Source of the DNA: Heptranchias perlo
Taxonomy: Eukaryota
DNA: 64,000 nt
Direction of reading: 5' to 3'
NCBI RefSeq assembly: GCF_035084215.1
Contig: NC_090346.1
Location: 4,836,001 to 4,900,000, forward strand
Shown: positions 5,996 to 63,660 of the stretch, piece by piece
Layout: every line of letters begins with the position of its first letter
Position numbering within the stretch: position 1 is the first letter of the stretch
Made by a program: the position numbers and the translations under genes
Notes under the pieces: model-generated
Databases searched by the model: none
Seen by the model: only the letters and a program-made list of their open reading frames with translations
What the model was told of the DNA's origin: nothing

Positions 5996-6454
5996 AAGAA
6001 AGAAAGACTTGGATTTACATAGTGCCTTTCATGACCTCAGCATGTCCCAAAGTGCTTTACAGCCAATGATGTACTTTTTTGAAGTACCGTCACTGTTATA
6101 TTGTAGGAAATGCGGTAGCCAATTTGCGCACAGCAAGATCCCACAAACAGCAATGTGATAATGACCAGATAATCTGTTTTAGTGGGTTGAGGGATAACAT
6201 TGGTCAGGACACCAACGAGAACTCCCCTGCTCTTCTTCGAAATAGTGCCAAGGGATCTTTTACATCCACCTGAGAAGGCAGACGCGGTCTCGGTTTAACA
6301 TCTCATCTGAAAGGTGGCACCTCTGGCAGTGCAGCACTCCCTCAGTACTACACTGGAACGCCAGACTAGATTTTGTGCTCAAGTCTCTGGAGTGGGGCCA
6401 CAGCATTCTGACTCAGAGGTAAAAGTGCTAACTACATGAGCCATAGCTGACACC
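5996..6454 (-). mobile_element. tRNA-derived Deu-domain SINE (SacSINE1/AmnSINE-like), full length
   Basis: Reverse complement has a GGTGTCAGC head, the Deu core (GTGCTGCACTG...AAAGATCCC...GAAGAAGAGCAGGGGAG) and a (TTTC)n tail. Homologous to 41086-41510. Confidence 0.88.
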
Positions 6455-7530: not shown

Positions 7531-9261
7531 TTCTGTCTATGTAATGTATTTACTGATTACAATCTGAAACCCTCCAGATTTCCATTTTTCTGCTTTTACA
7601 GGTAAAAGCTCACTGTTCGAGAAACAACAAAGGCCTAGAATGTTCCAAAAATCCTTTTTGGGTAGTTTGGGTGGACAAGGCTTAGTGAGTTACAGTGATG
7701 CCCTTGTGACACCCTGGCATCACCGAGTGGTGAGTGCAAATCAGATACTACAAAAACTTGCTTTTATTCAATTTATTGCTATTTTTATGAACAGAAAAGA
7801 AATATGGAGTTAAAATTTATGGCAATCACAGTTATCTATGTTTTATGTAAGGTTAATTAAGCTACCCCATGAATCCACAACAGAAATAAAGCACACAGAA
7901 TTTTATATTTTCAGTCACTATCTGGGCTATCCCTGTTCTTTTCTGTTTTCTGTTAAATAAAGTTTAAAAAATCTTATAGTATTAATTAAATAATGAAAAT
8001 TACAAATACTTAAATTCCATTCGATTATAATCTACCACAGATTTTGAAATTGAATTCATTGGCAACAAAGCTCGGCATATGGGTTGGGCCCCAAAAACGA
8101 TATGCCGGGCCCCCGAATTCCTCTCAATGTGCCTGGTGATGACATACTCTAGATAATAGTATGATATAACATTTAAGTTGGATCAAGGATGAAATGCATC
8201 TTGTATGTGATTTTTAATCATTGCACATTCTCTCGCTATCTCACTTTTTGAACTGAGTAGTGATGGATTTCATTGTCTGATGCAGAAACCAATATCTAGG
8301 TTGGGGATGCTGAAAGTTATGCAGTACGCCAGTATTATTACAAACTTTCATTACTTCCCCCAAAAGTTATTACTTTGTCCTGGGAACTTTATTGATTGTT
8401 CCTGTGATTTTTTTGAAATGCCCTCAAGAATTTCAAACCCAATTGTTTTGAGAGTGCCTGTGTGTTATGGAAACCTGAAGCTTCATATCACTGATATTAT
8501 TAAGCTACAATGGTACTGCATAATTGTGCAGCACTGCAGAAAAGTCTGCGTGATTATGACCAATATAATTGCATTTGTTTGTTTAGTTTCTTTGAAATAA
8601 AAGCTTGTTTTTCTTTTTTAAAAAAAATAATACAATGTAGTTAAAATGATTGTACTGCCAAACATGAAGTTTTAAATTAAAAAGAACTGTTGAAATCCCT
8701 ATTGTTTCTTGGTCACCAGCCAACAAGTGCTTGGAACTTAATAAACCACAAAGTAAGATTAGTGAGAGGTCAGTAATGGACCTATAGGAGTATTGGTACA
8801 GTAGTATCAGCACTAACTATGCACAGATCAGAAACATCACTACTCCAGAATAGCCCCGAAAATTGTGTTGTCACGAAAATGGGGATGGGGTGGAAATCTG
8901 TTAGACTGTTACAGGAAAAATTGGTTTTGAGAACATGGGGAGAGATTGCCTCTGTGCATGAGGTGTAAAGAAATTGTAAACACTTTCTTTGTAAATATAG
9001 AATGAATCTTGCACTCAAATGATCAGTCACTGGCAACATTATGGCAGACATTATGCACAGAATGTTGGGTCAGTGGGCCCGATTTTAGCAGGCATGCGGG
9101 TTCCTGGTGGGTGGTCCATCGGGAGCGTGGAAAACGCGGACGGCTAAATGAGTGCACCCCCCGCGCGATCGCCATTAAGCCGTGGTTACGGGTTCTCCGC
9201 TCCCCAGTTGCGTGCCGGCGACCTGCGCATGCGCATTGATGTTCGCGCGATGGTGGAGCTC

Positions 9262-9269
9262 TATTTAAA
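9262..9269 (+). promoter_or_regulatory. Putative TATA box of the Myb/SANT gene
   Basis: TATTTAAA about 50 bp upstream of an ATG in strong Kozak context (caccATGg, 9319), downstream of a CpG-rich subterminal region. Confidence 0.5.
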
Positions 9270-9318
9270 GGGGCAGTCCACCAAAGCCCCTCCAGCTTCA
9301 AACAAGAGGCATCACACC

Positions 9319-9558
9319 ATGGAGCACCCCAGTGGTAAGGCTGCACCACGGTTTTCGGACCTCGCGCTCCAGCTGCTGCTGGACGGTGTGAGGAGGAGGA
9401 GGGACACGCTGTTCCCAACTGACGGATGGAAGTGCCCTGGCTCCGCCACCAGGAAGGCATGGGCAGAGGTGGCGGCGGAGGTCAGCAGCAGGGCCAACAC
9501 CACCAGGACATGGGTGCAGTGTAGAAAGCGATTCAATGACCTCACTAGGTCCGGCAAA
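9319..9558 (+). CDS. Harbinger Myb/SANT-like DNA-binding protein, exon 1 (80 codons)
   Basis: MEHPSGKAAPRFSD...KAWAEVAAEVS...RTWVQCRKRFNDLTRSGK, followed by donor GTGAGT at 9559. Confidence 0.92.
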
Positions 9559-9882
9559 GTGAGTACACCAACGCACCCTCCCACAACCCGTCTCCAACAT
9601 CACGCCAAACACCTCACAACCCCTTCTGCACAGCCACCACAGCGCTCCCGCAGCAATCCTCACAGCCACTCAACTACCATCCTCACCGTGCCTGCATGTA
9701 CCCACCGTCCCTGTCCCCACTCGAACACTACCACACATCCCAATCCCCATGCAATGGGATGAGCATGTGGCACACGCATCCTCCCATCCATCTGCCCCAC
9801 GCTCAACCCACCCACACCGATGCTTGAGGCGTCTCACAATGCAATCTGCACTCACTCACGCATCTGTGTTTTGCCTTGACAG

Positions 9883-10042
9883 GAGAAGAGATGCAAGAAC
9901 GCCAGAGAAAGGGCCCGCACCGGAGGGGGCCCGCCACACCTGCTGGTACTGACGGACGCAGAGGTGGAGGCGCTGGATATCAGCCGCACGCAACATTGCC
10001 TCTCCGTGGCAGATGGCGAGGCTGGGGATGCAGAAACGGCCG
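9883..10042 (+). CDS. Harbinger Myb/SANT-like protein, exon 2
   Basis: Acceptor ttgccttgacAG (9881-9882). Phase-0 translation EKRCKNARERARTGGGPPHLLVLTDAEVEALDI contains the typical TGGG motif. Donor GTAAGG at 10043. Confidence 0.88.
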
Positions 10043-10158
10043 GTAAGGGAAAGCTGACACTCAGCACTCATGATCGCGAATGACCTTAGCATCACCTGGC
10101 ATCAGGCGCACCGTAACGTTTGTGCACATCCCTGAGATTGCCCTCTGTTCTCTTGCAG

Positions 10159-11156
10159 GGCCGTCTGCGAGCGCCGTGTCCGTTGAGGGCGATTCCTCAG
10201 AGGACATGCCGGTCTCTGAGGGTCCATCGTCACATATGAGTCAACCATCCACCAGCGCAGAGACACACGCCTCGGTGGGTCCCCCTCGCCAACTAGTTGG
10301 GGTTGCACATGGTGAGTCACCGCACACGAGTGAGCATGAGCAGACCCTGGTGGCAGGGGCAGCCGCGGAGGGTCCGCGTCGGTGGGAGCACTCTTCTCCA
10401 GGCTCTGCTCAGCCGGACCCAGATGCTGAACCCAGGGGGCCACCAGTCAAAAGGAGAGTCATCGAGAGGCACCAGCACATTGCCGAGGTACTGGGAGAGG
10501 TGCCACGCGCATTGTCCACAATCACGCAGGTGATGGAGGAGTCCAACTCCTGCATGCGGGCATTGGTGGCACAGGTACAGGAGGGTATCGGCGACATAGT
10601 GTCGCGGGTAGGTGCGGGAACGTCTGCGGTGGAGGACAGGCTAGCCTCCCTCGAGCGTCACGCACAGCTCAACATCGAGTCCATGCAGGCCCTGACAACG
10701 GCTGTTCGGATTCAGGGTGAGCAACATTCCGCCGCCATAAACAGGCTGACGGATACACTACAGGTGGCCTTGCAAGGCCTCACACATGCCATCCAAACTG
10801 TCGTCCAGCAGGGTGGAAGGGGTGATGTGGGCCGAGGCCATGAGAGGGATGATGGTGAACGGGGACATGGAAGCAGGGACGCTACTCAAGGTGCCCCCAC
10901 GTCTCACCCGTTGCCCCCCTCTCAACCAGTACCCGCAATGGTGCCTCCTCTCCAGGTGGCCGAGTCTGCCCCTGCACAGGTGCAGGAGGAGCAGTCCGTG
11001 GAGGTGCCCTCACGGGCACCGAAACCCAGGGGGCGTCGGCCCAAAGAGTCCACCCGGTCAGGGCACGAACAGGAGCAACCTGCCACTACCTCTGCTGGAG
11101 CCACAGGGGTAGCACCACGTAGGGGTTCCCGTAAACGTAAGCCAACGGTCTTATAA
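10159..11156 (+). CDS. Harbinger Myb/SANT-like protein, exon 3 (predicted helical/coiled-coil region, basic C-terminus)
   Basis: Acceptor tctcttgcAG (10157-10158). A phase-1 join keeps the frame of ORF 10080-11156, which ends RRGSRKRKPTVL*. Spliced CDS is 1398 nt, 465 aa. Confidence 0.88.
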
Positions 11157-11486
11157 GCACAAAGGGAATGCACCAGGGTGTCTGTCCATTTGTAATGTTT
11201 TTGTTTATAGTTATTCACTAAGTACATAGTAAACACAATCGTTCTCAACACTCCTGCCACCTCTCGTCCATTCTTCTGCGGCTTGTGCAATAGGTCCCTT
11301 CCGTGCGGGCCATCATGTCGACGAACACCTGGTCCCGCCCATTGGGCACACTACAGTGGGTGCAGGAGTACTGGCACCACTCTTCTGTGGAGGGGGCTGG
11401 TATGGCCCCTCGTCTGTGCAAGTGAGGAGATGTGAACGCCTCAGACTGTCTGATCCTAGGAGAACCGTTGACATATGAGTGCCTCC

Positions 11487-12638
11487 CTAGCCTGGCGAGC
11501 ATCCCGGTGAGCCGGTGTTCGCGTCCTCCTCCTCATCGTCGTCCTCAATGTGGGTGGCGGGTGTGGATGGGGCCTCCTCCAGTGGCACCCCTCTCTGTTG
11601 GGCCATGTTGTGCAGGGCACAGCAGACAACTATAATTCGTCCCACTCTGAATGGCGTGTATTGGAGCGCTCCCCCAGAACGATCAAGGCACCTGAAGCGC
11701 ATCTTGAGCAGCCCTATGGCCTGCTCAATTGCAGACCTGGTAGCAATGTGGCTGTCATTGTATCGACACTGCGGCTCGGTGATGGGGTTCCTCAGAGGTG
11801 TCATAAGCCACGTGTGCAGGGGATATCCCTTGTCGCCGAGGAGCCAGCCGTTGCCGGTGTTGGGTGCGTGGAAATGGGGCGGGACGGTGGACTCCCTGAG
11901 GACGAAGGCATCGTGGCAGCTGCCGGGGTATCTGGCGCACACGTGTAGGAATCTCTGGCGGTGGTCACAGATGAGCTGGGCGTTCATGGAGTGATACCCC
12001 TTCCTGTTGATGAACAGCCCTGGCTCATGTGGAGGTGCCTGTATTGCTATGTGGGTGCAGTCGATTACACCCTGCACCCATGGGAAGCCAGCCACAGCAT
12101 GGAAACCAACCGCCCTCTCCATCTGGCTGCGCTCGTCCATGGCGAAGTTGATGTAGTGCGAGGCCCTGTGGAACAACCTATCAGTGACCTGCCTTATGCA
12201 CTTGTGTGCAGAGGACTGACAGACCCCGGTGATGTCCCCGCTGGTACCCTGGAAGGATCCGGAGGCGAAGAAGTTGAGGGCAGTGGTGACTTTGACGGCG
12301 ACGGGTAAGAAGATGCTGCTTGGTCCATCCGGGAGCAGCTCGTCATTAAGGAGGCTGCAGATGTCGGCGACTACCTGGCGAGTGACTCTGAGCCTCCGTA
12401 TGCACTGCTCCTCGGAGAGGTCTATGAAGCTGAGCCTCGGTCTGTAGACCCTGTGCGGAGGGTAGTGCCTCCTGCGACGCATCTCTCTCTGTGGTTGCCC
12501 TCCCTCCTGCTGTGCAGGTGGGTGTGCCGCAGCACCGTGTTGGGGGGCTCCACGTCTCTGAGGCGGACGGCGTGGACTGCGAGGCTGCTGGGGCTGGTGA
12601 TGCTGTTCGTCCTCCGAGGATGTCGAGGCGGCCCCCAT
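11487..12638 (-). CDS. PIF/Harbinger (HARBI1-like, DDE_Tnp_4-type) transposase
   Basis: Open frame with [27 protein letters not shown] and AIEQAIGLLKMRFRCL. Likely start is MGAAS at 12638, directly after an acceptor-like ctgccAG. The C-terminal tail is probably frameshifted. Confidence 0.93.
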   Translation of the reverse strand: MGAASTSSEDEQHHQPQQPRSPRRPPQRRGAPQHGAAAHPPAQQEGGQPQREMRRRRHYPPHRVYRPRLSFIDLSEEQCIRRLRVTRQVVADICSLLNDELLPDGPSSIFLPVAVKVTTALNFFASGSFQGTSGDITGVCQSSAHKCIRQVTDRLFHRASHYINFAMDERSQMERAVGFHAVAGFPWVQGVIDCTHIAIQAPPHEPGLFINRKGYHSMNAQLICDHRQRFLHVCARYPGSCHDAFVLRESTVPPHFHAPNTGNGWLLGDKGYPLHTWLMTPLRNPITEPQCRYNDSHIATRSAIEQAIGLLKMRFRCLDRSGGALQYTPFRVGRIIVVCCALHNMAQQRGVPLEEAPSTPATHIEDDDEEEDANTGSPGCSPG

Positions 12639-13574
12639 CTGGCAGGTGTAGGTCTGAGGGGTTGTGCACGGTAGGTAGGTGTTTCCTCGCACTGGGGCTG
12701 CGGTTCCACGTCGGTGTTTCTTCTGGCTTGGAGGGGGGTGGTGGAGGGCAGGCGTTGCCCTATGTGACGGAGTGGCCTCCTGCGTTGGTGAAGGGTCTCC
12801 CCCCACCACCCTCCCCCCCTGTGGAGTGCACCTTGGCAGCTGCCACAGGCTGCTGGCTGCAACACATCCGTTTGGAGTGAGACTGTTTCCCCCAGTCTCA
12901 GGTGCAGGTAAAATCCCACACTTCCTAATAAGACAGCTGAATCAGGTCATTTAATAACCTGAAATAGCTAGATAAATATTGTCAAGTGGCATCCCGCTGG
13001 CTTTAATTGTCTGCGGGATTCCCACCAGCGGGGGCTTCGCACGCACCCCCGCACGTCAGCGCGAAACCCGGAAGTGGGCGGGATCGAGGCGGGATCCGGT
13101 CCCGCTCCGGGTTTTCGCGATTTTCGGGGCCCCCCCGCCGGGAACGCACCCGATAGTGGGTGCTAAAATTGGGCCCAGTGTGTCTTAACTTCAATCTGAA
13201 ATCAATGGCTATCATAATCTACTAGATGACTGGCATGTTGGTTACATCTCTTTGATATTATAGAGAGTAGTTTCTGATAGCAGGCCAGCCTCAAATCCAC
13301 TTCTCTGCATAGCTCTGTGCTGTACTGAGTTCAGGAGCAGGTTTTCTCTGAAGTCTGTCAAAGAGCGGTAAAATACTCTATCGCTAGCCAGGTACATTAT
13401 AGACTTAATAGAACACTGAAGTCTCTAATGGTGAGAAGTTGGGTCAGACTTTCCCACTCTTCAACCTGCTTTTCCAAGCACCTTATCCACGTTTTGTCCA
13501 ATATTTAGACACAATTAACAAGCTATGGAGCTGAATGTTTGTAACCGAAGAGAGTTTGAAAGCCTTATAAAGTG

Positions 13575-32759: not shown

Positions 32760-33744
32760 ATGGCCAACAAATAAAGCCATTAAACCAGCCGCAGTTCCAT
32801 TGCTATTGGATTAGAAGACTTTTCACTGCCTCTAGGAAGTCTTTATGCTTCAAGTTCACCTAGTATTTTTAAAATAAACGTTTTTGGAAAGTAGTTGATC
32901 TTAAAACTGCTGTGGAAGAAAATGAGAAATCCCACCTTCCACCAGGCAGTATGTCAGTATGGTTTTGTTGCTGAATACTTTGGTACTCTGAACCATGTTA
33001 TAGTTCTTTAGAAAGACACATTTTATATATTCGTTCATTCATTCAATATCTATTATTTAGTGCATGGGGCGTGCATTTCATTGAAAACTCGTAAGTATCA
33101 GCATTACCTGCTCCTCCTGCAATGATAGACCTTTTCAAAATTGAAGGTGTTGCATTGTATGTCCATGTGACAGCTGCGGTTTTATAGGAGCAATACAGTA
33201 GTGAGAGTAGATCATCCAGTGATTGCAAAATCTGGCCACCAGGTTCACACAAATCGCTCAAAATACTTTATAATGTTTTAATCTTTCAGCTTTTCTATAA
33301 CTGCAATTTTCATGTTCGAAGAGCGTAAACAAATTTTTAAATATCAAAAATTATCTATTTCACAAGAACATAACATTTATCCATTGAATAGTCTTTTGTG
33401 TTTTTTAATGTTTTCATTAATGTTTTAACTTGAAGGTCTCAGCTTCTCCCAAAAGCTTGGGCTTGGACTTCATACTTTTGCCCAAAGTTGTGACTCGGTG
33501 AACTGAATTTGGATTGTGCAGTCTGAGCACGTGCAGCATGCCTAATTTCCCAGGATGCGTCAGTATCATTTAGTCAGCTATTTTGATAGAATATTTTTCT
33601 TTGGTTGCTCGCACTTTCTACACAGTTGCTTTTCTTCAAATTATGTTCAAAAACAAGAGGACAAGTTTCAAAACCTTTATTGAGATGAAAATTTATGTTG
33701 AGTTTTTTTTTAAAAAAGAGGTTGTGTGTGAGAGAATTGAGTGA

Positions 33745-36135
33745 GGAGACTTTAACTTTCCCAACATTGACTGGGACAGCCATAGCATTAGGGGCTTGGA
33801 TGGAGAGAAATTTGTTGAGTGTATTCAGGAGGAATTTCTCATTCAGTATGTGGATGGCCCGACTAGAGAGGGGGCAAAACTTGACCTCCTCTTGGGAAAT
33901 AAGGAAGGGCAGGTGACAGAAGTGTTGGTGAGGGATCACTTTGGGACAAGTGATCATAATTCCATTAGTTTTAAGATAGCTATGGAGAAGGATAGGTCTG
34001 GCCCAAAAGTTAAAATTCTAAATTGGGGAAAGGCCAATTTTGATGGTATTAGACAGGAACTTTCAGAAGTTGATTGGGAGAGTCTGTTGGCAGGCAAAGG
34101 GACGTCTGGTAAGTGGGAGGCTTTCAAAAGTGTGTTAACCAGGGTTCAGGGTAAGCACATTCCTTATAAAGTGAAGGGCAAGGCTGGTAGAAGTAGGGAA
34201 CCTTGGATGACTCGGGAGATTGAGCAACTAGTCAAAAAGAAGAAGGAGGCATATGACATGCATAGGCAGCTGGGATCAAGTGGATCCCTTGAAGAGTATA
34301 GAGATTGCCGGAGTAGAGTTAAGAGAGAAATCAGGAGGGCAAAAAGGGGATATGAGATTGCTTTGGCAGATCAGGCAAAGGTGAATCCAAAGAGCTTCTA
34401 CAAATACATAAAGGGCAAAAGGGTAACTAGGGAGAGAGTAGGGCCTCTTAAGGATCAACAAGGTCATCTATGTGCGGAACCACAAGAAATGGGGGAGATC
34501 CTGAATGAATATTTCACATCGGTATTTACGGTTGAGAAAGGCATGGATGTTAGGGAACTTGGGGAAATAAATAGTGATGTCTTGAGGAGTGTACATATTA
34601 CAGAGAGGGAGGTGCTGGAAGTCTTAACGCGCATCAAGGTAGATAAATCTCCGGGACCTGATTAAATGTATCCCAGGACGTTATGGGAGGTTAGGGAGGA
34701 AATTGCGGGTCCCCTAGCAGAGATATTTGAATCATCCACCGCTACAGGTGAGGTGCCTGAAGATTGGAGGGTAGCAAATGTTGTGCCTTTGTTTAAGAAG
34801 GGCGGCAGGGAAAAGCCTGGGAACTACAGACCAGTGAGCCTGACATCTGTAGTGGGTAAGTTGTTAGAGGGTATTCTGAGGGACAGGATCTACAGGCATT
34901 TGGAGAGGCAGGGACTAATTAGGAACAGTCAGCATGGTTTTGTGAGAGAAAAATCATGTCTCACGAATTTGATTGAGTTTTTTGAAGGGGTAACCAAGAA
35001 GATAGATGAGGGCTGTGCAGTAGACGTGGTCTACATGGACTTCAGCAAAGCATTTGACAAGGTACCGCATGGTAGGTTGTTACATAAGGTTAAATCTCAT
35101 GGGATCCAAGGTGAGGTAGCCAATTGGATACAAAATTGGCTTGACGACAGAAGACAGAGGGTGGTTGTAGAGGGTTGTTTTTCAAACTGGATGCCTGTGT
35201 CCAGCGGTGTGCCTCAGGGATCGGTGCTGGGTCCGCTGTTATTTGTTATTTATATTAATGATTTGGATGAGAATTTAGGAGGCATGGTTAGTAAGTTTGC
35301 AGATGACACCAAGATTGGTGGCATTGTGGACAGTGAAGAAGGTTATCTGGGATTGCAACGGGATCTTGATCAATTGGGCCAGTGGGCCGATGAATGGCAG
35401 ATGGAGTTTAATTTAGATAAATGTGAGGTGATGCATTTTGGTAGATCGAATCGGGCCAGGACCTACTCTGTTAATGGTAGGGCGTTGGGGAGAGTTATAG
35501 AACAAAGAGATCTAGGAGTACAGATTCATAGCTCCTTGAAAGTGGAGTCACAGGTGGATAGGGTGGTGAAGAAGGCATTCGGCATGCTTGGTTTCATTGG
35601 TCAGAACATTGAATGCAGGAGTTGGGATGTCTTGTTGAAGTTGTACAGGGCATTGGTGAGGCCACACTTGGAGTACTGTGTACAGTTCTGGTCACCCTAT
35701 TATAGAAAGGATATTATTAAACTAGAAAGAGTGCAGAAAAGATTTACTAGGATGCTACCGGGACTTGATGGTTTGACTTACAGGGAGAGGTTAGACAGAC
35801 TGGGACTTTTTTCCCTGGAGAGTAGGAGGTTAAGGGGTGATCTTATAGAAGTCTATAAAATAATGAGGGGCATAGATAAGGTCGATAGTCAAAATCTTTT
35901 CCCAAAGGTAGGGGAGTCTATAACGAGGGGGCATAGATTTAAGGTGAGAGGGGAGAGATACAAAAGGGTCCAGAGGGGCAATTTTTTCACTCAAAGGGTG
36001 GTGAGTGTCTGGAACAAGCTGCCAGAGGCAGTAGTAGAGGCGGGTACAATTTTGTCTTTTAAAAAGCATTTGGACAGTTACATGGGTAAGATGGGTATAG
36101 AGGGATATGGGCCAAGTGCAGGCAATTGGGACTAG
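33745..36135 (+). pseudogene. CR1 ORF2 (reverse transcriptase), 5'-truncated, one nonsense codon
   Basis: ORFs 33796-34665 and 34666-36135 are contiguous in frame (KSPGPD*MYPR). RT motifs QHGF, DFSKAFDKV, GVPQGSVLGP, FADD. Confidence 0.95.
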
Positions 36136-36220
36136 CTTAGTGGTATAAACTGGGCGACATGGACATGTTGGGCCGAAGGGCCTGTTTCCATGTTGTAACT
36201 TCTATGATTCTATGATTCTA
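33745..36220 (+). mobile_element. Young 5'-truncated CR1 LINE (end of APE endonuclease, full RT, 3' UTR)
   Basis: Frame runs from GDFNFPNIDW (33745) to the stop at 36135 with one internal TAA (34663-34665). (TTCTATGA)n tail at ~36200-36220. Confidence 0.97.
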
Positions 36221-36919
36221 TACACCTATTGTAGATTTCGTGTTCTATAAACTTCTAAAAGTGCACTAAACTGAAGGAAAAAGAGAGGGGAGCAAGACAG
36301 GGAGACTACATGTTAAAGTTAGTTTAATTTTCAACAAAAACATTGGTGGAATTTTGAAGCCAATTATTTATCCACCTGTGTTTAGCTGACAATTAGAGAT
36401 GATAATTGTTAATTCCATTCACCTGCATGACAGAGGAATGTGAATTCAACATTATTGTGCCCCTTTTCCAGGCATGAGTCAGGTGCAACAATAACCCAGT
36501 TTATAGCGCAGAGGCCTGCACCCGAACCGCAAGATCTCTCGTAGCCACCTGGAAAGAGCGCAAGCATTGAAACAAGGCTCCTGTGCTCATTTCCGATGTA
36601 TATGCCTAAATTTTTGCAGATTTTAATTCCTGTTGCATTATGATATTTAATTGGCAAATAGTATAAAGTTTCTCTGACATGGGGCCAATGTAAATCAACT
36701 GAACCAAAAAATGTTGGTTCTTTATTCATGAGGGAGGGTATTTGGATTTAATTTTCATCACAGATTTATTTAGATTAGCTGTAGCTTGTGCTTCGCAATG
36801 TCCGGCCAGTATTTTGGGGTTTTAAGCTGCCTAACCAGCAGTTCTTAAAGGCAATGCTGAAGGTCCCTTCAAGGAAAAGCCCCAAAACTTCCTCAAATAT
36901 CCTTTTTGTGGAGTTGGAT

Positions 36920-37110
36920 CCTCTTCGAAATAGTGCCATGGAACCGTTTACATTTAACTTAGAGGGCAAAGAGGCCTCAGTTTAACGTCTCATCCGAAAG
37001 ACGGCATCTCCAACGGTGCAGCCCCTCTCAGCAGATTATGTGCTCAAGTCTCGGGAGTGGGACATGAACTCACAACCTTCTGACTTAGAGGCGAGAGTGC
37101 TACTACTGAG
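36920..37110 (-). mobile_element. Deu-domain SINE, 5' half
   Basis: CTCTTCGAAATAGTGCCATGG...CAACCTTCTGACTTAGAGGCGAGAGTGCTACTACTGAGC matches the other copies. Confidence 0.82.
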
Positions 37111-37285
37111 CACTACTTCTTAAACAACTAATAGATATTAAAGCTCATCAGGTACTCCTGTGGTCTTCATCAATCACAAGTTATCTAGTCAATCTCGCTA
37201 ATGTAGATATTTTATCATATGGCTCAAAAACACGACATCTGTATAATTAAAAATCGTGCATATAGCATGTCACACATTAAACTGG

Positions 37286-37320
37286 CAAGCTTTCGGAGGC
37301 TACCTCCTTCCTCAGGTGAA
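37286..37320 (-). ncRNA. Candidate minimal hammerhead ribozyme motif (Penelope-associated), 3' strand of stem I absent
   Basis: Minus strand reads TTCAC-CTGAGGA-a-GGAGG-tag-CCTCC-GAAA-gc-TT-g: CUGANGA box, 5 bp stem II, GAAA box, palindromic AAGCTT stem III, UH site. Confidence 0.7.
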
Positions 37321-37778
37321 CGATGTGGAAATTAAATCCTCGAAATGAAGTCGCATTTATAATTCACATAACAATGCTTGGTGAGTACAGACAGTTTTTT
37401 CAACTGCCCGTTGCCAAGGCAATCAGTGTGCAGACAGACAGGTGTTACCTGCCAGGTCTCACAGAATATACAAATCACCAAAAAAAAACAAACAAAAAAA
37501 AAGAGATAGAGAGGTAGAAACATAGAAAAGACAGCAACTGACCCGTTATATTAAAAACAGATAACATTTGTTCGCTGGTGGGGTAACGTGTAGCGTGACA
37601 TGAACCCAAGATCCCGGTTGAGGCCGTCCTCATGGGTGCGGAACTTGGCAATCAATTTCTGCTCGACGATTTTGCGTTGTCGTGTGTCTCGAAGACCGCC
37701 TTGGAGTATGCTTACCCGAAGGTCGGTGCCTGAATGTCCTTGACTGCTGAAGTGTTCCCCGACTGGGAGGGAACCCTC

Positions 37779-37969
37779 CTGTTTGGCGATTGTTGCGCGG
37801 TGTCCGTTCATCCGTTGTCGCAGTGTCTGCATGGTCTCGCCAATGTACCTCATACATTGTCTACCTCATACGTTGCAGGAAAGGATGCCCCAGAGCATGG
37901 TACATTGGCGAGACCATGCAGACACTGCGACAACGGATGAACGGACACCGCGCAACAATCGCCAAACAG
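37779..37969. repeat. Perfect 71 bp inverted repeat with 49 bp spacer
   Basis: 37779-37849 is the exact reverse complement of 37899-37969. Confidence 0.96.
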
Positions 37970-62284: not shown

Positions 62285-63660
62285 AGATATGGGAACTAAA
62301 TATTCCTGGATAGGAAATTTTCAGGAGAGATACAGAAAGAAAAAGGGAGAAGGGTCGGCCTTGTTATTTAAGAGCATAATGGTGCTCAAATAAAGAGAAA
62401 TGGAAAAAGGATAAGACTTTCATTTATATAGCACCTTTCATGACCTCAGGATGTCCCAAAGCACTTTGCAGACAATGAAGTACTTTTTTGAAGTGTAGTC
62501 ACTGTTGTAATGTAGGGAATTGGGGCAGCTAATTTGCACACAGTAAAGTCCCACAAACAGCAATGAGATACATGACCAGATAATTAGTTTTAGTAATGCT
62601 GGCTGAGGGATAAATATCAGGAGAACTCTCCTGCTCTTCTTCAAATAGTGCCATGGGATCTTTTACGTCCACTTGAGAAGACAGATGAGGCCTCAGTTTA
62701 ACTTCTCATCTGAAAGATGGCACCTCTGACAGTGCAGCATTCCCTTAGTACCGCACCGGAATGTCAGCATAGATTATGTGCTCAAGTCTGCAGAGTGGAA
62801 CTTGGAACCCACAATCTTCTGACTCGGAGGCGAGGGTGTTACCACTGAGCCAAGGCTGACATGATAGCTAAGATAGATTCTGTCTGATTTGAACTAAAAA
62901 ATAAGAAACTGTTACCACATTGAAGACCACTAAATAGTGAGAAAGAGAATGAGATTTGTAGGTAACTTAGACAAGTAACAGAGTTAAAAGAATTGGTTTG
63001 TGGTCAAAATGGGGAGGGATTCTCAGTATGCATTTAGGACTGTACGTCCAACAAGGAAAGATGTAGTACTAGATTGGGTTCTAGTTAATGATGTAAGTGA
63101 TCTGAAGGTTGCAGAACGCTTCAGAAATACAGCCATATGAAACTAAATACAGAAAAAGAGGAGTTGAAGTTGAAAGTGTTGCACTAGAATGATCTAATTT
63201 TGGTTACATGAAACTGAACCTAGCCCAGGTTAACTGGTTGGAAAAAATGGTAGATCAAACTGCAGAGCAGCAGTGGGAGATATTTTAATATGTTCTGACT
63301 ATGAAGAAAGGGGTGTATCAAAGGTCAGTGTTCCATGTATAAATAACAAATGAGAGAAAATTAGGTTTAAAGAGGCATATGATAAACGCCTTTTTAAACC
63401 TAATTTTCTTCTGAAAATATCAAAAATATGAAGTATATGGGAAGCAAAAAAGATTAGAAAGGCTAAGAGGGAGTATAAAAGGGCTTAGGTCCAACATAAA
63501 TAGCGAGGGCTTTTTTAAAGCACTGAAGAAGTAGAAGGATAGTCAAAGAAGAGGTGGGACCACAGACACAAAGGGGGATGCAACTTGTATTTGAAAGTGA
63601 GGGAATGATAAAACTGCTTAATAAATATTTTGATTCAGTTTTCACAGAAGAATGTGAGAG
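62285..63660 (+). mobile_element. Very old CR1 ORF2 fragment (APE domain and linker), interrupted by a SINE
   Basis: WELNIPG..IFRRD at ~62290, VLDWVLVN at ~63065, LLNKYFDSVFTEE at ~63615-63650. Confidence 0.7.
62411..62861 (-). mobile_element. Deu-domain SINE, full length
   Basis: Collinear with 5996-6454; head TGTCAGCCTTGGCTCAGTGG on the minus strand. Confidence 0.9.

What the first reader, a model, noticed from the sequence alone, without database searches (positions are those of the whole stretch)
37286..37320. Minimal hammerhead ribozyme motif at the Penelope 3' end, with the element apparently stopping at the cleavage site
Seen on the minus strand: UUCAC CUGAGGA a GGAGG uag CCUCC GAAA gc UU g, then unrelated AT-rich DNA. 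Known: Penelope-like elements carry minimal hammerheads with a palindromic stem III (here AAGCUU) that are thought to act as dimers. The GUGAA strand needed to close stem I is missing beyond its first G. Inference: the reverse-transcribed RNA had a 3' end made by self-cleavage, so this insertion may record ribozyme activity in vivo.
Basis: partly seen in the sequence, partly recalled or inferred. Interest (0 to 1): 0.72.

Follow-up and report, generated by a model that had tools for sequence, protein, structure and literature searches.

The report
Penelope copy broken beside its hammerhead
A short, broken copy of a Penelope-like jumping gene carries a real, already-known type of tiny hammerhead ribozyme and stops one base past its predicted cut site, but this end was more likely made by sequence-guided joining on uncut RNA than by ribozyme cutting, so it is weak evidence of ribozyme activity in living cells.

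Summary
The motif is real: a minimal type I hammerhead at 37320-37286 (minus strand) in the 3' repeat of a 684-bp, 5'-inverted GIY-YIG Penelope-like copy (Neptune/Nematis type, shark-like genome). A model built from 11 foreign hammerheads finds it as the window's only significant hit (E 2e-6). It stops one base after the predicted cut site, keeping G1.1. A cleavage-made end needs that G by chance (0.19). The flank also matches the family continuation at 6 of 9 letters (p 0.02-0.03, noticed afterwards). The 5' junction has 4-nt microhomology, there is no target-site duplication, and the neighbouring LINE has lost its 3' end. In another hammerhead-bearing Penelope family, 0 of 55 copies end at the cut site. 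Published Anolis work finds internal initiation on uncut RNA. End positions in this family could not be counted, because no genome is held. Best reading: internal priming on uncut RNA (0.45); later deletion 0.27; ribozyme-made end 0.22. This is a known association and of low interest.

The parts
37286..37320 (-). Minimal type I hammerhead, 3' strand of stem I cut short. Stem I 5' strand 37320-37316; CUGAGGA 37315-37309; extra A 37308; stem II 37307-37303 / 37299-37295 with loop UAG; GAAA 37294-37291; AGCU palindrome 37291-37288; U17 37287; G1.1 37286. Predicted cut between 37287 and 37286.
   Evidence: numbering from recalled hammerhead convention
37286..37849 (-). Sense part of the PLE copy: GIY-YIG C-terminus (frame ends at 37551), then 3' UTR / pseudo-LTR up to the hammerhead
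37854..37969 (+). Inverted 5' arm of the same PLE (VYLIRCRKGCPRAWYIGET...AKQ); 71 nt (37899-37969) are a perfect inverted copy of 37779-37849
   Evidence: uninverted family copies diverge before 37854-37857
37846..37855 (.). Inversion junction: 10 nt that repeat 37862-37871, net filler 37850-37853; read as a templated patch
   Evidence: (D3); the mechanism is inference
37966..37969 (.). 4-nt microhomology shared by the LINE end and the inverted PLE arm
   Evidence: LINE reads ...PNST-V; relatives continue PNSTVG
37966..40210 (-). Decayed LINE (RT; CR1/L2-like by recall) that stops at the PLE and lacks its last 23 codons and 3' end; 5' limit approximate
37277..37285 (-). First 9 flank bases; 6 of 9 equal the family's continuation after G1.1 (7 of 9 pairs counting one G-U wobble)

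Best explanation
This is a truncated, 5'-inverted Penelope-like copy carrying a known minimal hammerhead, and its 3' end was likely set when a broken target DNA end paired loosely with uncut element RNA just past the ribozyme and primed reverse transcription from G1.1. Shown: the motif, the family continuation, the inversion, the microhomologies, the missing target-site duplication and the lost LINE end. Inferred: (1) the flank's 3'-OH annealed to the RNA just after G1.1 and was extended, which keeps the target's letters and starts element letters at exactly G37286; (2) a second DNA end inside the LINE primed internally through 4 nt and made the inverted arm (twin-priming-like); (3) the two cDNAs were joined by a templated 10-nt patch; (4) target DNA between the two ends was lost. 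In intact family copies the hammerhead is predicted to work as a dimer through AGCU. This copy cannot form stem I and is predicted to be dead.
For: G1.1 is retained; G is 30 of 156 flank bases. The flank matches the family continuation at 6 of 9; 2.0% of window 9-mers and 3.0% of local 9-mers do as well. The other junction of the same insertion has 4-nt microhomology at an internal RNA position and a 10-nt templated repeat. No shared 5-mer in direct orientation between 45 nt upstream and 46 nt downstream, so no TSD. The LINE lacks 23 C-terminal codons present in P0064. In a second hammerhead-bearing PLE family, 0 of 55 copies end within 11 nt of the cut site (called ends +12 to +127), while 25 of 34 simulated cut-site ends were called at +5 or less. 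In L094 and L120 a conserved tail lies downstream of the cut site (0 of 1000 shuffles). PMC11167929: initiation is internal, hammerhead mutants do not affect insertion, and no RNA-seq reads begin or end at the site. PMC3846280 reports a Penelope inserted in a LINE with no TSD and a microhomology 5' junction.
Against: The break lies within 1 nt of the one site named in advance by ribozyme chemistry. The 6-of-9 match was noticed after the fact, rests on a tool consensus from another, possibly different, species, and AT-rich target preference would inflate it. The primer end would be poor: a G-U wobble followed by a mismatch. PMC11167929 found initiation at RNA sites NOT homologous to the cut DNA. 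The 55-copy comparison is another family in another organism. One search hid 406 loose-end rows, so a pile-up in this family is not excluded. A later DNA deletion explains the same features.
Confidence: 0.45

Rival explanations
1. The element inserted normally into the LINE with a full tail, and a later deletion or repair event removed the PLE tail, the LINE's 3' end and any target-site duplication, joining G37286 to distant DNA by chance or microhomology.
For: One event explains the missing LINE end, the missing TSD and the missing tail. Microhomology-mediated deletions in Penelope copies are reported (PMC3846280).
Against: The copy looks fairly young (71-nt arms 100% complementary), which leaves less time. 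Simple annealing through the shared TTTAA would have kept the element's GTGAA, but the flank's letters are kept (inference).
Confidence: 0.27
2. One reading: the template RNA had been cut by the hammerhead (as a dimer in a tandem transcript), reverse transcription began at the cut 3' end (U17), and G37286 comes from the target.
For: The break fits the cut site to within one ambiguous base. The family's hammerhead is intact, with a 5-bp stem I and 5-bp stem II, and a second subfamily shares only 37286-37319 with this one. Cleavage of PLE RNA by these motifs is the proposed role in PMC4209133, and PAc's hammerhead does cleave in vitro with protein.
Against: It needs a chance G (0.19) and a chance 6-of-9 flank match (0.02-0.03). 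0 of 55 comparison copies end there. The conserved tail downstream of the cut, where initiation is expected, would be lost. Among the 6 loose-end rows shown for X2 none is at 37287, and the 65 contigs at 37286 agree 0.77 on the family continuation with median loose length 13 (weak, because rows are hidden).
Confidence: 0.22
3. The junction is an assembly error or chimera between a repeat copy and unrelated DNA.
For: No listed contig piece spans the junction in the 4 runs laid.
Against: Those runs may not be the window's species or individual, and the tool hides records. The inversion and junction details look like ordinary retrotransposition products.
Confidence: 0.06

Closest known systems
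Minimal hammerheads (min-HHR) of metazoan Penelope-like elements (Cervera & de la Pena 2014, PMC4209133; abstract, Results and Discussion read)
   Same: Type I topology, 4-5 bp helix I, unpaired base 5' of helix II, G-C first pair of helix II, palindromic positions 15.2-16.2, place in the pLTR. Already reported in fish Xena, Poseidon and Neptune elements, and mostly as single motifs in truncated copies.
   Different: This copy has lost the 3' strand of helix I. Helix II is 5 bp, shorter than the 7-8 bp given for Schistosoma. I found no description for a shark family (0 papers with Neptune, Penelope-like and shark).
Poseidon of Anolis carolinensis, PAc (Frangieh et al. 2024, PMC11167929; parts 1-2 of 4 read, supplements not opened)
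   Same: Hammerhead in the pLTR with a conserved tail downstream; internal initiation on uncut RNA is the reading preferred here.
   Different: PAc ends fall at two fixed sites 111-118 nt into the ORF with the cut site at +26, and without homology to the target. Here the end is 1 nt past the cut site. This family has the CX4CxxC linker that Penelope/Poseidon lack.
Neptune/Nematis-type EN+ PLEs and typical PLE insertion anatomy (Craig et al. 2021, PMC8557442; Arkhipova et al. 2013, PMC3846280; passages read)
   Same: C-terminal GIY-YIG with two cysteines between the motifs, CX2-5CxxC linker in close relatives, 5' truncation, inverted 5' segment, optional loss of TSD with microhomology.
   Different: The inverted segment here is ORF sequence rather than a pLTR, and the 3' tail is absent.

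Membership tests
Minimal type I hammerhead of PLEs | Core CUGANGA ... GAAA and a UH cleavage site | tested here: met
Minimal type I hammerhead of PLEs | Helix II with G-C first pair and an unpaired base 5' of it | tested here: met
   5 bp, A37308 unpaired
Minimal type I hammerhead of PLEs | Helix I of 4-5 bp closing the motif, in the family | tested here: met
   family contigs continue G-TGAA; L043 has the same UUCAC/GUGAA
Minimal type I hammerhead of PLEs | Helix I in this genomic copy | tested here: not met
   1 bp only: a broken remnant
Minimal type I hammerhead of PLEs | Palindromic, minimal helix III that allows a dimer | tested here: met
   AGCU self-pairs in the dimer folds of 3 of 3 intact relatives (L043, L094, L120). 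Those folds also swap stem II strands, so they are no proof of the active dimer.
Minimal type I hammerhead of PLEs | Covariation in helices I and II | tested here: met
   score 0.628 against 0.158 shuffled, 0 of 500; slid controls at most 0.158. The 11 foreign rows were hand-picked from 122 loci after seeing their stem counts, which inflates the result.
Minimal type I hammerhead of PLEs | Self-cleavage, as monomer or dimer | not testable with these tools
   needs an in vitro assay
Rfam hammerhead families | Match to a curated model | tested here: inconclusive
   no hammerhead hit in window 33000-45000, but none either in 6 of 6 loci with intact minimal motifs
EN+ Penelope-like element | C-terminal GIY-YIG endonuclease after a PLE RT | tested here: met
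   Pfam GIY-YIG E 1.4e-4 and 0.0099, both below the curated cut-off; 92% identity to P0002, which has RT plus this domain. The RT is absent from this copy.
Neptune/Nematis clades | CX2-5CxxC linker between RT and EN | tested here: inconclusive
   present in the close relatives P0002 and P0010 (definition) but outside the window copy; no tree was built, so Neptune and Nematis are not told apart
Insertion made from ribozyme-cleaved RNA | 3' end exactly at U17 | tested here: inconclusive
   last family-matching base is G1.1; chance G 0.19
Insertion made from ribozyme-cleaved RNA | Family-wide pile-up of 3' ends at the cut site | tested here: inconclusive
   not countable in this family; not met in a comparison family, 0 of 55

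The most novel reading that the evidence does not exclude
In this shark Neptune-type family a real fraction of insertions are reverse-transcribed from RNA that the minimal hammerhead has already cut, so their 3' ends are a genomic fossil of ribozyme cleavage in the germ line, and the PLE enzyme can start on a cyclic-phosphate end without its normal tail. This copy would be one of them.
Probability: 0.22. Interest if true: 0.62.

Novelty: new member of a known kind. Interest (0 to 1): 0.2.

Why it matters
Whether PLE hammerheads cut in living cells is still open: PMC4209133 had no in vivo evidence, and PMC11167929 found no RNA ends at the site. A family-wide pile-up of genomic 3' ends at the cut site would be a cheap in vivo record, and this very abundant shark family is a good place to count. 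One copy that ends a base past the site, with microhomology and lost DNA at its junctions, cannot carry that claim.

Tried and rejected
The window's genome is not held, so ends could not be counted in this family. Pattern scans for the shark-type motif found 0 loci in viral contigs and 0 in genome contigs; a looser pattern gave 2 viral loci with no stem I. Rfam found no hammerhead in the window, but it also missed intact relatives, so that blank says nothing. Single-strand folding of the motif is no better than shuffles (z -0.02 and -0.68); the L094 stretch folded was mis-placed and was replaced. No other PLE copy and no other copy of the LINE's 3' part lies in the window. The idea that the flank is an older PLE tail found no support: 98, 550, 554 and 612 of 1000 shuffles scored as well against 4 relatives' tails; low, uneven depth over the flank in X2 and X13 is unexplained and may be chance. 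The reading that three substitutions, not a break, changed TGAA to CCAG was rejected, because similarity does not resume and the copy is little diverged elsewhere. A simple fold-back origin of the inverted arm was rejected, because 45 nt of the arm (37854-37898) are absent from the sense part. RNA-labelled run X5 is contigs and a guessed label, so it shows neither transcription nor RNA ends. Earlier scan notes by sequence, genome and relatives returned nothing.

Full report
Observation. By standard hammerhead numbering (recalled) the core is CUGAGGA at 37315-37309, an extra A, a 5-bp stem II with a UAG loop, GAAA at 37294-37291, GC, U16.1 at 37288, U17 at 37287 and G1.1 at 37286. The predicted cut lies between 37287 and 37286. 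A descriptor hits once in the window and 0 times in 300 shuffles. A covariance model from 11 other sequences finds the motif at 29.4 bits, E 2.2e-6, with the next hit at E 0.088 (E-values from this short calibration are rough). Rfam gives no hammerhead hit, but it also misses 6 of 6 loci with intact minimal motifs.

What it sits in. The motif ends a 684-bp insertion, 37969-37286. The sense part (37849-37286, minus strand) holds the C-terminus of a GIY-YIG frame ending at 37551, then the 3' repeat. Upstream is an inverted arm, 37854-37969, that reads VYLIRCRKGCPRAWYIGET...AKQ on the plus strand; 71 nt of it are a perfect inverted copy of 37779-37849. The junction between the two repeats 10 nt of the arm. 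The closest named proteins are shark predictions, the best from Heptranchias perlo at 92-97% identity, so the window is probably from a shark (inference). Relatives P0002 and P0010 have RT, a CX4CxxC linker and this endonuclease; PMC8557442 assigns that linker to the Neptune and Nematis clades and not to Penelope/Poseidon (passages). No tree was built. Beyond the arm is a decayed LINE that stops at ...LPNSTV, where P0064 goes on for 23 more residues; its missing end is not found elsewhere in the window. LINE and arm share 4 nt, 37966-37969. There is no target-site duplication.

Does the family close stem I? Yes. Of 22 runs listed I laid 4 on 37130-37980. Contigs that leave the window before 37286 continue, in element orientation, TGAA and an A/T-rich run: 65 contigs in X2 (agreement 0.77, median 13 loose letters), 13 in X5 (0.79) and 1 listed in X9. 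X13 does not cover the hammerhead. A second subfamily in X2 and X9 shares only 37286-37319 and has other sequence upstream, so the motif is conserved while its surroundings change. Among 12 aligned motifs, stems I and II covary (0.628 against 0.158 shuffled, 0 of 500). I chose the 11 foreign rows from 122 loci after seeing their stem counts, so this is inflated; 5 of them lie beside PLE protein matches. Dimer folds of 3 intact relatives pair AGCU between copies, though they also swap stem II strands. This matches the min-HHR of PMC4209133 (abstract, Results, Discussion) and the dimer account in PMC6765202 (passages). Lunse et al. was seen only as a reference there.

Was the end made by cleavage? 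For: the break fits a site named in advance, to within one base. Against: (a) the copy keeps G1.1, which a cut RNA would lack, and G is 30 of 156 flank bases. (b) The first 9 flank bases equal the family continuation at 6 positions; 2-3% of 9-mers do as well. I noticed this afterwards, and AT-rich targeting would raise the chance. (c) The other end of the same insertion is joined at an internal RNA position through 4 nt, DNA has been lost, and there is no TSD, so the locus is not a clean scar. (d) The metagenome scan gave 55 copies, all on JAAUYG01 contigs, of another family with the same kind of motif; L079 and L034 have weak PLE endonuclease matches, E 0.002. Their 3' ends were called at +12 to +127 from the cut site, 0 of 55 at +5 or less, whereas 25 of 34 simulated cut-site ends were called at +5 or less. 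The 9 copies that matched worst in the first 10 nt all resume the family tail by eye. One end (L033) is a contig end, and L070 (+13) is the least clear. This bounds cut-site ends at roughly 7% in that family (inference). It is another organism. (e) L094 and L120 share a conserved tail 16-72 nt past the cut site (0 of 1000 shuffles), though 4 of the other 5 tail pairs were not significant. (f) In Anolis PAc, initiation is internal, hammerhead mutants do not alter insertion, genomic ends fall at the initiation sites, and no RNA-seq reads begin or end at the hammerhead site (PMC11167929, parts 1-2 of 4; its Fig. S2 was not seen). The same paper found initiation without homology to the target, which counts against my microhomology step.

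What I could not measure. No genome is held. In one search none of the 6 loose-end rows shown for X2 is at 37287, but 406 rows were hidden under an unstated ranking, so a pile-up of low-depth unique junctions is not excluded. No listed piece spans this junction, so it is unconfirmed by reads.

Weighing it (inference). If a few percent of copies came from cut RNA, the chance of also seeing the G and the 6-of-9 match is about 0.19 x 0.03-0.06. Early ends in the comparison family run at about 0.4% per position (5 of 55 over 23 positions), and microhomology is expected under that route. The two come out at about 1:1 to 1:3 against cleavage. I give internal priming on uncut RNA 0.45, later deletion 0.27, cleavage 0.22 and artefact 0.06. 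Priming fits the geometry best: target letters are kept across the similar stretch and element letters start at once with G1.1. Its weak point is a poor primer end, a G-U wobble followed by a mismatch. PMC3846280 describes both a TSD-less, microhomology-joined Penelope in a LINE and microhomology-mediated deletions (passages), so both non-cleavage routes have precedent.

Known and new. Minimal hammerheads in fish PLEs, 5' inversions and truncated single copies are in print. The preprint 10.64898/2026.07.22.740005 links animal retrozymes to PLE pLTRs (part 1 of 5 read). Searches listed no paper whose title or abstract start reports genomic PLE 3' ends piling up at the hammerhead site; I did not read most of those listed, and subscription journals are not covered. 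Earlier scan notes on other genomes reached similar verdicts; they are unchecked leads, not support. Verdict: a new member of a known kind, interest 0.2. The novel case, that some insertions record in vivo cleavage, keeps a probability of 0.22 and can be tested by counting ends in the assembly.

Noticed in passing
55 loci on JAAUYG01 contigs (e.g. L006, L024, L059, L072): In the comparison PLE family, 23 of 54 copies with enough flank have their 5' end within 30 nt upstream of the hammerhead core, so short hammerhead-plus-tail fragments are common. The search pattern itself requires an intact core, which shapes this count.
   Followed up: partly
window 37286-37319; runs X2 and X9: A second subfamily shares only the hammerhead with this copy and has unrelated sequence upstream (22 contigs in X2, 1 listed in X9).
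   Followed up: no
window 9023-12941: Convergent Myb/SANT frame (9148-9762, +) and DDE_Tnp_4 transposase frame (11487-12941, -), the layout of a PIF/Harbinger transposon (Pfam; family name recalled). A second transposase fragment lies at 1821-2435.
   Followed up: partly
window 33745-36135 (+): LINE ORF2 (endonuclease plus RT) broken by a single stop near 34665, so probably young.
   Followed up: no
window 36950-37111, with copies at 41099-41275, 62687-62850 and 6368-6441: A SINE-like repeat family at 69-78% identity; the SINE label is recalled.
   Followed up: no
P0001, P0009, P0015, P0020, P0030, P0033 and others: Many predicted shark protein isoforms (XRCC5, septin 5a, FAM204A, a cytochrome P450) contain this PLE endonuclease piece: either exonization or annotation read-through into intronic copies.
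   Followed up: no
L043:3-491 and 969-997; L082: In L043 the hammerhead faces away from a PLE RT on the opposite strand, and L082 holds two hammerheads head to head: inverted pLTR arrangements.
   Followed up: no
window 37160-37285: The flank drew low, uneven contig depth in X2 and X13 (up to 325 and 70 at 37246-37274) and holds a lone CTGATGA near 37150; no link to a PLE tail was found.
   Followed up: partly
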